Position numbers and translations under genes: made by a program. From assembly GCF_003018255.1 (NCBI RefSeq), contig NZ_CP027440.1: 64,000 bases of DNA. The stretch is one strand, 5' to 3'. The DNA comes from Escherichia coli. GTDB taxonomy: Bacteria; Pseudomonadota; Gammaproteobacteria; Enterobacterales; Enterobacteriaceae. Each line of letters begins with the position of its first letter. Position 1 is the stretch's first letter. Shown here one piece after another: positions 59,877-60,878 of the stretch. The notes below the pieces were generated by a model, which searched no databases, was not told where the DNA came from, and saw only the letters and a list, made by a program, of their open reading frames with translations.

Positions 59877-60878
59877 TCAGAGTTTAGCGAATTTTTCGAG
59901 GGTGCGAATGAGTTGTGTGACGAAGCCATATTCGTTATCGTACCAGGCGACCGTTTTCACCAGTTGTAAATCGCCCACGGCGGTAATTTCCGTTTGCGTG
60001 GCATCAAACACCGACCCGAAATGGCTGCCAATGATATCGGAAGAGACTATTTCTTCATCGGTATAACCAAATGACTCGTTATTGGTGGTTGCTTGTTTAA
60101 GTGCGTTATTCACCTCTTCGGCAGTCACTTTTTTTGCGAGAATGGACACCAGCTCAGTGACCGAACCTGTTTTCACCGGCACGCGTTGCGCATGACCTTT
60201 CAGTTTGCCGCTCAGTTCCGGGATCACCAGACCAATGGCTTTTGCCGCACCTGTAGTGTGGGGAATGATATTTTCTGCCGCTGCGCGTGAAGCTCGTAAA
60301 TCCTTCCCACGCGGACCATCCACCAGTGACTGGGTGCCGGTATAGGCATGAATGGTCGTCATCGTGCCGACTTCTATCCCGAAACTGTCATGCAAGGCTT
60401 TGGCCATCGGCGCAAGGCAGTTAGTGGTGCATGACGCCACGGAAACAATGGTGTCGTTGCCATCCAGAGTGTCGTCATTGACGTTATAAACGATAGTTTT
60501 CATTTCACCGGCAGGGGCGGAAATCAACACCTTCTTCGCACCAGCATCAAGGTGCGCCTGCGATTTCTCTGCGGAGGTATAAAAGCCAGTACATTCGACA
60601 ATGATTTCTGCGCCTTTCGCTTTCCATGGAATATTTTTAGCCTCTTTTTCGGCGTAAACCGCGATACTTTTTCCATCAACGATAAGTGAATCTTCCGTAA
60701 AATCAACGCTCCAGGGGAACGGTCCGTAGTTTGAATCATGTTTCAGCAGGTAGGCGAGAATTTTTGGGGAAGTGAGATCATTAATAGCGACAACGTCTAT
60801 GTTGCTTTTGACTTCAAGTAATCGACGCAACACCAGTCGACCGATACGACCAAAACCATTAATACCAACTTTACTCAT
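59877..60878 (-). CDS. gapC: glyceraldehyde-3-phosphate dehydrogenase GapC, intact
   Basis: 333 aa uninterrupted ORF with [11 protein letters not shown]-binding motif and active-site ASCTTNC. Confidence 0.9.

What the first reader, a model, noticed from the sequence alone, without database searches (positions are those of the whole stretch)
59877..60878. gapC is a full-length ORF (fragmented pseudogene in K-12)
An uninterrupted 333-aa GAPDH with NAD-binding and catalytic motifs intact. This strain may therefore have a second functional glyceraldehyde-3-phosphate dehydrogenase besides gapA.
Basis: partly seen in the sequence, partly recalled or inferred. Interest (0 to 1): 0.35.

Follow-up and report, generated by a model that had tools for sequence, protein, structure and literature searches.

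The report
Intact gapC gene: normal E. coli allele
The window carries an unbroken copy of gapC, a second glyceraldehyde-3-phosphate dehydrogenase gene, but this is the usual state in E. coli: strain K-12 is the exception, and the enzyme has already been purified, assayed and crystallised.

Summary
Window 59877-60878 (minus strand) is an uninterrupted 333-codon ORF with a Shine-Dalgarno site. It lies in the conserved aldA / gapC / cybB / hokB / trg neighbourhood. It encodes a type I NAD-dependent GAPDH: both Pfam domains are present, it scores above the TIGR01534 cut-off, and GFGRIGR, Asp34, Cys150 and His177 are all present.

The interpretation, a second functional GAPDH besides gapA, is supported but not new. 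The product is 332/333 identical to the crystallised "EcGAPDH1" (PDB 7c5f series). That protein is catalytically active and needs Cys150 and His177.

K-12 has two lesions: K39stop, and an A7-to-A6 frameshift at codons 248-250. Among 5426 complete E. coli genomes they occur in 1155 and 1050, while gapC DNA is present in 5417. Of 12 diverse full-length alleles sampled, 11 are intact. Mean dN/dS is about 0.06.

Published work already reports that gapC is intact in environmental isolates and is induced in fresh water. The only peculiarity here is Gly248Ala. It sits at a variable position and is shared by 85 genomes, many of them avian or pathogenic strains. Codon usage suggests a conditionally expressed accessory isozyme, not the main glycolytic enzyme.

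Verdict: real, ordinary, already known.

The parts
59877..60878 (-). gapC coding sequence: 333 codons plus stop, encoding a type I NAD-dependent glyceraldehyde-3-phosphate dehydrogenase
   Evidence: ORF. Pfam PF00044 and PF02800. TIGR01534 scores 448 bits against a cut-off of 367. 332/333 identical to PDB 7c5f. 100% nucleotide identity to the annotated 'gap' gene of E. coli strain 104.
60885..60889 (-). Shine-Dalgarno sequence AGGAG, 6 nt upstream of the ATG
   Evidence: Read directly from the sequence. Conserved in all 14 E. coli alleles aligned.
60429..60431 (-). Codon for the catalytic Cys150 (TGC), within [10 protein letters not shown]
   Evidence: Motif position. Invariant in 107 orthologues. 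C150A abolishes the activity of the near-identical enzyme (PMC8615399).
60348..60350 (-). Codon for the catalytic His177
   Evidence: H177A lowers activity about 8000-fold (PMC8615399).
60762..60764 (-). Codon 39 (AAA, Lys). This is TAA (stop) in K-12 and in 1155 of 5426 complete genomes.
   Evidence: Alignment with BW25113. Census with a 41-mer centred on the stop codon.
60129..60135 (-). A7 run in codons 248-250. In K-12 it is shortened to A6, which causes the frameshift.
   Evidence: The A6 allele is present in 1050 of 5426 genomes.
60135..60137 (-). Codon 248, GCA (Ala). It is GGA (Gly) in every other E. coli allele sampled and is the only protein-level peculiarity of this allele.
   Evidence: The column is variable among orthologues: E 77, G 23, S 6, D 1. 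An exact 75-mer that includes this codon occurs in 85 genomes.
59847..59869 (.). GC-rich 9-bp hairpin (AGGCGGAGG-TTTTT-CCTCCGCCT) in the 40-nt spacer between the convergent aldA and gapC stop codons. It is probably a shared transcript end or stabiliser. No U-tract follows it on either strand.
   Evidence: Fold energy -18.2 kcal/mol, z = -4.8. Conserved in the other E. coli alleles, with a T6 loop instead of T5. The terminator scan did not call it.
60879..61066 (-). gapC-cybB divergent intergenic region, which should hold the gapC promoter. The transcription start is not mapped here.
   Evidence: Highly conserved across E. coli, including K-12. In K-12, sigma-S RNA polymerase binds this intergenic region by ChIP-seq (PMC4447067). 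The only consensus sigma-70-like match on this strand is at 61073..61044, partly inside cybB.

Best explanation
This is the ancestral, intact allele of E. coli gapC. It encodes a homotetrameric type I NAD+-dependent glyceraldehyde-3-phosphate dehydrogenase.

Mechanism. Cys150 attacks glyceraldehyde-3-phosphate to form a thiohemiacetal. With His177 as base, hydride passes to NAD+ and leaves a thioacyl enzyme. Phosphate then attacks that intermediate to release 1,3-bisphosphoglycerate.

Role. GapC is a paralogue of the main, very highly expressed GapA (46% identity). It most likely serves as a conditionally expressed accessory isozyme, active in stationary phase (sigma-S), slow growth and fresh-water conditions, rather than carrying bulk glycolytic flux.

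The K-12 state. The pseudogene is a derived, lineage-specific loss. K39stop came first, and an A7-to-A6 slip in the same lineage came later.

Shown and inferred. Shown here: the intact ORF, its domains and motifs, near-identity to an assayed and crystallised enzyme, its prevalence, and purifying selection. Taken from the literature: enzyme activity and environmental expression. Inferred: expression and physiological role in this particular strain.
For: - **ORF and ribosome-binding site:**
- **Domains:** both GAPDH domains; TIGR01534 equivalog above its cut-off.
- **Match to a solved enzyme:** 332/333 identical to PDB 7c5f and its mutant series. For that enzyme, PMC8615399 reports a KM of 0.73 mM for G3P, loss of activity in C150A, a large drop in H177A, and structures with NAD, G3P, the thioacyl intermediate and BPG.
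- **Synteny:** aldA-gapC-cybB-hokB-trg, the same order as in annotated genomes.
- **Prevalence:** gene DNA in 5417 of 5426 genomes; K-12 stop codon in 1155 and frameshift in 1050; 11 of 12 sampled full-length alleles annotated as intact.
- **Selection:** mean pairwise dN/dS 0.059 with dS 0.089.
- **Orthologues:** 88-97% identical proteins in E. albertii, Citrobacter, Trabulsiella and Klebsiella. Cys150, His177, Asp34 and Arg18 are invariant in 107 of them.
- **Expression level:** rough Fop is 0.47 for gapC and 0.91 for gapA.
- **Literature on expression:** intact in environmental isolates and expressed in fresh water (PMC2949598; PMC1796617); rpoS-dependent transcripts (PMC2759082); sigma-S polymerase binding (PMC4447067); gapC transcript regulated in EPEC (PMC6333774).
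Against: - No expression or activity data exist for this strain.
- The promoter is not mapped, and only one weak sigma-70-like match was found.
- The allele carries Gly248Ala, which has not been assayed, although the position is variable.
- About a fifth of the sequenced genomes have lost the gene without obvious harm, so its contribution to fitness is conditional at best.
- The published assays were run at 50 degrees C and pH 10, which says little about physiological flux.
Confidence: 0.9

Rival explanations
1. The ORF is intact but is effectively a cryptic or silent gene that contributes nothing to fitness. It simply has not yet acquired an inactivating mutation.
For: - Low codon adaptation compared with gapA.
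- A large lineage, 1155 of 5426 genomes, lives without it.
- Sporadic further disruptions exist, such as a 20%-coverage hit (H40), C-terminal frameshift variants, and a 314-aa form from strain LF82 whose lesion I did not characterise.
Against: - dN/dS of about 0.06 across divergent alleles with dS of about 0.09 is incompatible with neutral drift.
- Orthologues are retained at 88-90% amino-acid identity in other genera.
- Transcripts and regulation have been reported.
Confidence: 0.06
2. The enzyme's main substrate or role is not glycolytic G3P oxidation. It could be an erythrose-4-phosphate dehydrogenase like Epd/GapB, or an ArsJ-coupled arsenate-resistance GAPDH.
For: The protein gives sub-threshold matches to the E4PD models (281 and 277 bits) and to the ArsJ-associated GAPDH model (308 bits).
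Against: - All these scores fall far below the curated cut-offs of 539, 530 and 450 bits, whereas TIGR01534 GAPDH-I passes.
- No arsJ gene is adjacent; the neighbours are aldA and cybB.
- The near-identical enzyme binds and turns over G3P, and structures of the thioacyl intermediate and of BPG complexes are solved.
Confidence: 0.03
3. The intact reading frame is an assembly artefact: a homopolymer miscall at the A7 run hides a K-12-like frameshift.
For: The gene contains an A7 run at exactly the site where K-12 is frameshifted. Homopolymers are prone to sequencing error.
Against: - The K-12 frameshift travels with the K39stop and R18G haplotype, which this allele lacks.
- Independent assemblies share the same allele: strain 104 is 100% identical over the whole gene, and 85 genomes share the exact 75-mer across the run.
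Confidence: 0.01

Closest known systems
E. coli GapC / 'EcGAPDH1' (PDB 7c5f, 7c5g-7c5r; UniProt P58072 for O157:H7)
   Same: 332 of 333 residues are identical. It has the same length, the same catalytic Cys150 and His177, and the same NAD-binding motif. The gene sits at the same chromosomal locus as in annotated genomes.
   Different: One substitution, Gly248Ala, at a variable position. This allele is shared by 85 of 5426 complete genomes.
E. coli K-12 gapC pseudogene (gapC_1/gapC_2, b1417/b1416)
   Same: It is orthologous: same locus, 97.5% nucleotide identity, and a conserved upstream region and ribosome-binding site.
   Different: K-12 has K39stop, an A7-to-A6 frameshift and R18G. The window allele has none of these.
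E. coli GapA, the main glycolytic GAPDH
   Same: Same enzyme family, fold and catalytic residues; both are type I NAD-dependent GAPDHs.
   Different: Only 46% amino-acid identity. gapA has an Fop of about 0.91 and is at least 99% identical in nucleotide sequence across nearly all genomes. gapC has an Fop of about 0.47 and 95-99% identity. The two genes lie at different loci.
Epd (GapB), erythrose-4-phosphate dehydrogenase
   Same: A homologous two-domain dehydrogenase.
   Different: The protein scores far below the Epd equivalog cut-offs: 281 against 539 bits and 277 against 530 bits.

Membership tests
Type I glyceraldehyde-3-phosphate dehydrogenase (TIGR01534 / Pfam PF00044 + PF02800) | N-terminal NAD-binding domain plus C-terminal catalytic domain, each matched at full length | tested here: met
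   PF00044 matches residues 3-102 (E 6.5e-36) and PF02800 matches residues 155-313 (E 2.8e-58), both over the full profile length.
Type I glyceraldehyde-3-phosphate dehydrogenase (TIGR01534 / Pfam PF00044 + PF02800) | Score above the curated equivalog cut-off | tested here: met
   TIGR01534 scores 448.4 bits against a cut-off of 367.2.
Type I glyceraldehyde-3-phosphate dehydrogenase (TIGR01534 / Pfam PF00044 + PF02800) | Catalytic Cys in SCTTNC and catalytic His; GxGxxG dinucleotide fold; acidic residue conferring NAD preference | tested here: met
   GFGRIGR at residues 8-14, Cys150 and His177. Asp34, Cys150 and His177 are invariant in 107 orthologues.
Type I glyceraldehyde-3-phosphate dehydrogenase (TIGR01534 / Pfam PF00044 + PF02800) | NAD-dependent oxidative phosphorylation of G3P; tetrameric enzyme | not testable with these tools
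   Shown in the literature for a protein that differs by one residue: activity, KM and a crystal with four subunits (PMC8615399). Not measured for the Ala248 allele.
E. coli gapC orthologue (chromosomal aldA-gapC-cybB locus) | Synteny: convergent with aldA and divergent from cybB, with hokB and trg beyond | tested here: met
   ORFs in the window have the same order as the annotation of strain 104 and BW25113.
E. coli gapC orthologue (chromosomal aldA-gapC-cybB locus) | Nucleotide identity within the species range | tested here: met
   90-100% identity to 5417 of 5426 complete genomes, at least 95% in 5325 of them; 100% to strain 104.
Erythrose-4-phosphate dehydrogenase (Epd; TIGR01532 / NF010058) | Score above the curated cut-off | tested here: not met
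   277.3 against 530.55 bits, and 281 against 539 bits.
ArsJ-associated GAPDH (NF033735) | Score above the cut-off and an adjacent arsJ gene | tested here: not met
   307.9 against 450 bits. The neighbours are aldA and cybB, with no arsJ.

The most novel reading that the evidence does not exclude
Intact gapC could be kept by selection for a role outside bulk glycolysis, for example persistence at low temperature or in fresh water under sigma-S control. Its loss in the K-12 / phylogroup-A sublineage would then mark adaptation away from that niche. On this reading, the intact allele in an avian or extra-intestinal pathogenic lineage, with its lineage-specific Gly248Ala, reflects an environment-transmitted lifestyle. 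This extends the 1998 observation and would not be a new kind of system.
Probability: 0.25. Interest if true: 0.3.

Novelty: already known. Interest (0 to 1): 0.08.

Why it matters
It matters little beyond correct annotation. K-12 is an atypical reference for this locus, so 'intact relative to K-12' should not be read as a gain. Metabolic models and gapA-knockout designs built on K-12 would miss a second GAPDH in most natural, pathogenic and B-type strains. The gene is already used as an E. coli species marker in qPCR (PMC10614358). The nested order of the K-12 lesions, with the stop codon more widespread than the frameshift, is a small, tidy example of pseudogene decay.

Tried and rejected
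- **Short census queries across the A-run.** A 34-mer for an A8 allele and a 32-mer for the window's GCA-A7 allele both returned 'No match'. The second result must be a false negative, because strain 104 is 100% identical and a 75-mer over the same site finds 85 exact matches. BLAST's low-complexity filter is the likely cause. therefore says nothing about recurrent slippage to A8.
- **Standard CAI.** Biopython's Sharp E. coli index is not installed. I used a rough optimal-codon fraction based on remembered optimal codons instead, so that figure is indicative only.
- **Original EcGAPDH1 paper.** The 2020 Acta Cryst F paper (PMC7470045) is not held, so I could not confirm the source strain of the crystallised gene. 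One paper reading failed on a formatting error.
- **Promoter and terminator scans.** They found one weak sigma-70-like site and no classical terminator for gapC. The 3' hairpin has no U-tract, so I do not call it an intrinsic terminator.
- **Strain 104 as the source of the window.** Rejected. Only gapC is 100% identical; the flanks are about 99% identical and there are insertion/deletion differences.
- **Structure prediction.** Not run, because a crystal structure with 99.7% identity already exists.

Full report

Yes. The ORF listing returns one long ORF at 59877..60878 on the minus strand, with an ATG start, 333 aa and no internal stop. Directly upstream lies AGGAG (60885-60889), 6 nt from the ATG. 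The translated product begins [14 protein letters not shown]. It contains [10 protein letters not shown] with Cys150, and His177. An open frame of this length has a chance probability of about 1e-7. The Pfam matches (Gp_dh_N E 6.5e-36, Gp_dh_C E 2.8e-58) leave no doubt that it is a gene.

**2. What is it?**

NCBIfam places the protein in TIGR01534, type I GAPDH, at 448 bits against a cut-off of 367. The erythrose-4-phosphate dehydrogenase models and the ArsJ-associated GAPDH model all fall well below their cut-offs.

Against the PDB, the protein is 332/333 identical to chain 7c5f_O and its mutant series 7c5g-7c5r. The paper describing those structures (PMC8615399) calls the enzyme EcGAPDH1 and reports:
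- a KM of 0.73 mM for D-G3P;
- loss of activity in C150A;
- drops of about 10^4-fold in C150S and H177A;
- complexes with NAD, phosphate, G3P, the thioacyl intermediate and 1,3-BPG.

The mechanism is therefore known for an essentially identical protein.

The neighbourhood in the window is aldA (58397-59836, +), gapC (-) and cybB (+), then a small ORF, hokB/sok and trg. This is identical in order to the annotated chromosomes of E. coli strain 104 and K-12 BW25113. The gene is 100% identical in nucleotide sequence to the 'gap' gene of strain 104. The window as a whole does not come from that strain: the flanks are about 99% identical and there are several indels.

**3. Comparison with K-12**

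In BW25113 the orthologous gene is annotated 'frameshifted; internal stop'. My alignment shows 25 differences from the window allele. Twenty-one are synonymous. The other four are R18G, K39stop (AAA to TAA), the loss of one A from the A7 run in codons 248-250, and the Gly/Ala difference at codon 248.

**4. How unusual is the intact state?**

It is not unusual.
- **Presence:** gapC DNA is found in 5417 of 5426 complete E. coli genomes, and in 5409 of them at 80% coverage or more.
- **K-12 stop codon:** a 41-mer that can only seed if the central K-12 stop codon is present hits 1155 genomes.
- **K-12 frameshift:** a 32-mer specific for the A6 allele hits 1050 genomes.
- **Which genomes:** both sets are rich in K-12 laboratory derivatives, so they overstate the natural frequency.
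- **Order of events:** strain PK8241 carries R18G and the stop codon but still has A7. Together with 1155 being larger than 1050, this indicates that the stop came first and the frameshift later in the same lineage.
- **Sampled alleles:** of 12 full-length (1002-nt) alleles spread across the identity range, 11 are annotated as intact proteins.
- **Selection:** pairwise dN/dS among the 13 alleles averages 0.059, with dS 0.089. This is strong purifying selection.
- **Orthologues:** proteins 88-97% identical occur in Escherichia albertii, Citrobacter, Trabulsiella, Klebsiella oxytoca/grimontii and others. Cys150, His177, Asp34 and Arg18 are invariant in 107 of them.
- **R18G:** it occurs only on the pseudogene haplotype, which fits relaxed constraint after inactivation.

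The intact gene is therefore the ancestral and majority state, and K-12 is the derived exception.

**5. What is specific to this window's allele?**

There is one amino-acid change, Gly248Ala (GGA to GCA), immediately before the A7 run. All 12 other E. coli alleles sampled have Gly at this position. Among orthologues the column is variable: Glu 77, Gly 23, Ser 6, Asp 1. A functional effect is therefore unlikely. This is an inference; the residue was not mapped on the structure.

The exact 75-mer around this codon is found in 85 of 5426 genomes, including O7:K1 strain CE10 and several avian pathogenic strains. It is a lineage marker.

**6. Expression and role**

- **Upstream region:** the 188-bp gapC-cybB intergenic region and the ribosome-binding site are highly conserved across E. 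coli, K-12 included. A consensus scan finds only one weak sigma-70-like site on the gapC strand, at 61073..61044. I did not map a promoter.
- **3' end:** a 9-bp GC-rich hairpin (59847-59869; -18.2 kcal/mol, z = -4.8) lies between the convergent aldA and gapC stop codons. No U-tract follows it.
- **Codon usage:** the rough optimal-codon fraction is 0.47 for gapC, similar to aldA at 0.49, and 0.91 for gapA.
- **Sequence diversity:** gapA is at least 99% identical in 5424 genomes, whereas most gapC alleles are 95-99% identical to the window's.
- **Relationship to GapA:** GapC and GapA share 46% identity.

These points indicate a low or conditionally expressed accessory isozyme.

The literature agrees:
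- gapC transcripts depend on rpoS and rise during slow growth (PMC2759082).
- Sigma-S RNA polymerase binds the gapC-cybB intergenic region (PMC4447067).
- The gapC transcript is regulated in EPEC (PMC6333774).
- gapC is used as an E. coli qPCR marker, citing UniProt P58072 and Hidalgo et al. 1996 (PMC10614358).

**7. Rival explanations**

- **A cryptic, neutrally drifting gene.** This is contradicted by dN/dS of about 0.06 and by conservation across genera.
- **A different substrate specificity (Epd-like or ArsJ-linked).** This is contradicted by the model scores, the gene context and the solved G3P and BPG complexes.
- **A hidden homopolymer error.** This is unlikely. The allele lacks the rest of the K-12 pseudogene haplotype, and independent assemblies share the same sequence: strain 104 over the whole gene and 85 genomes over the 75-mer across the A-run.

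**8. Verdict**

The finding is an ordinary, previously described feature of non-K-12 E. coli. It is already known and of low interest.

Noticed in passing
window 18985-32764: A block of about 13.8 kb is present in the window but absent from strain 104. It lies next to ttcA, which I recall as the Rac prophage attachment locus in K-12 (from memory, not checked). It looks like a degraded lambdoid prophage carrying cargo genes. It holds a 411-aa ORF beside ttcA (possibly an integrase), a partial gpJ, lom, a 1103-aa tail-fibre gene, a Bcr/CflA MFS transporter and the sitABCD iron/manganese uptake operon (28953-32402, minus strand). No complete E. coli genome matches 80% or more of the block in one place.
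   Followed up: partly
window 61608-61671 (-): The RydC sRNA gene lies just downstream of cybB, with a full-length Rfam match of 92.5 bits against a gathering score of 48.
   Followed up: no
window 62087-62382 (-): The hokB/sokB type I toxin-antitoxin locus is here. There is a 49-aa HokB ORF at 62087-62236 and a Sok antisense RNA match at 62231-62382 (104.8 bits).
   Followed up: no
window 61031-61597 (+): The longest cybB ORF starts at an ATG at 61031 (188 aa), whereas RefSeq annotates a 176-aa protein that corresponds to a start at 61067. The upstream extension overlaps the only sigma-70-like match found on the gapC strand.
   Followed up: no
window ~2538, ~46242 and ~43700, compared with strain 104 (L015/L016): Compared with strain 104, the window lacks about 1.3 kb at its position ~2538 and about 0.7 kb at ~46242. 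In strain 104 these gaps coincide with an ISVsa5 (IS4-like) element and an IS200C element, so the two differences are probably IS insertions in that strain. In strain 104 the paa operon is reduced to paaY plus a paaX fragment. The window is collinear across that region, so it probably carries the same deletion.
   Followed up: partly
K-12 allele (L002 4001-5001) and L005: The K-12 gapC pseudogene carries R18G at a residue that is invariant in 107 orthologues. Strain PK8241 has R18G and the stop codon without the frameshift, which shows a stepwise decay series within one lineage.
   Followed up: yes
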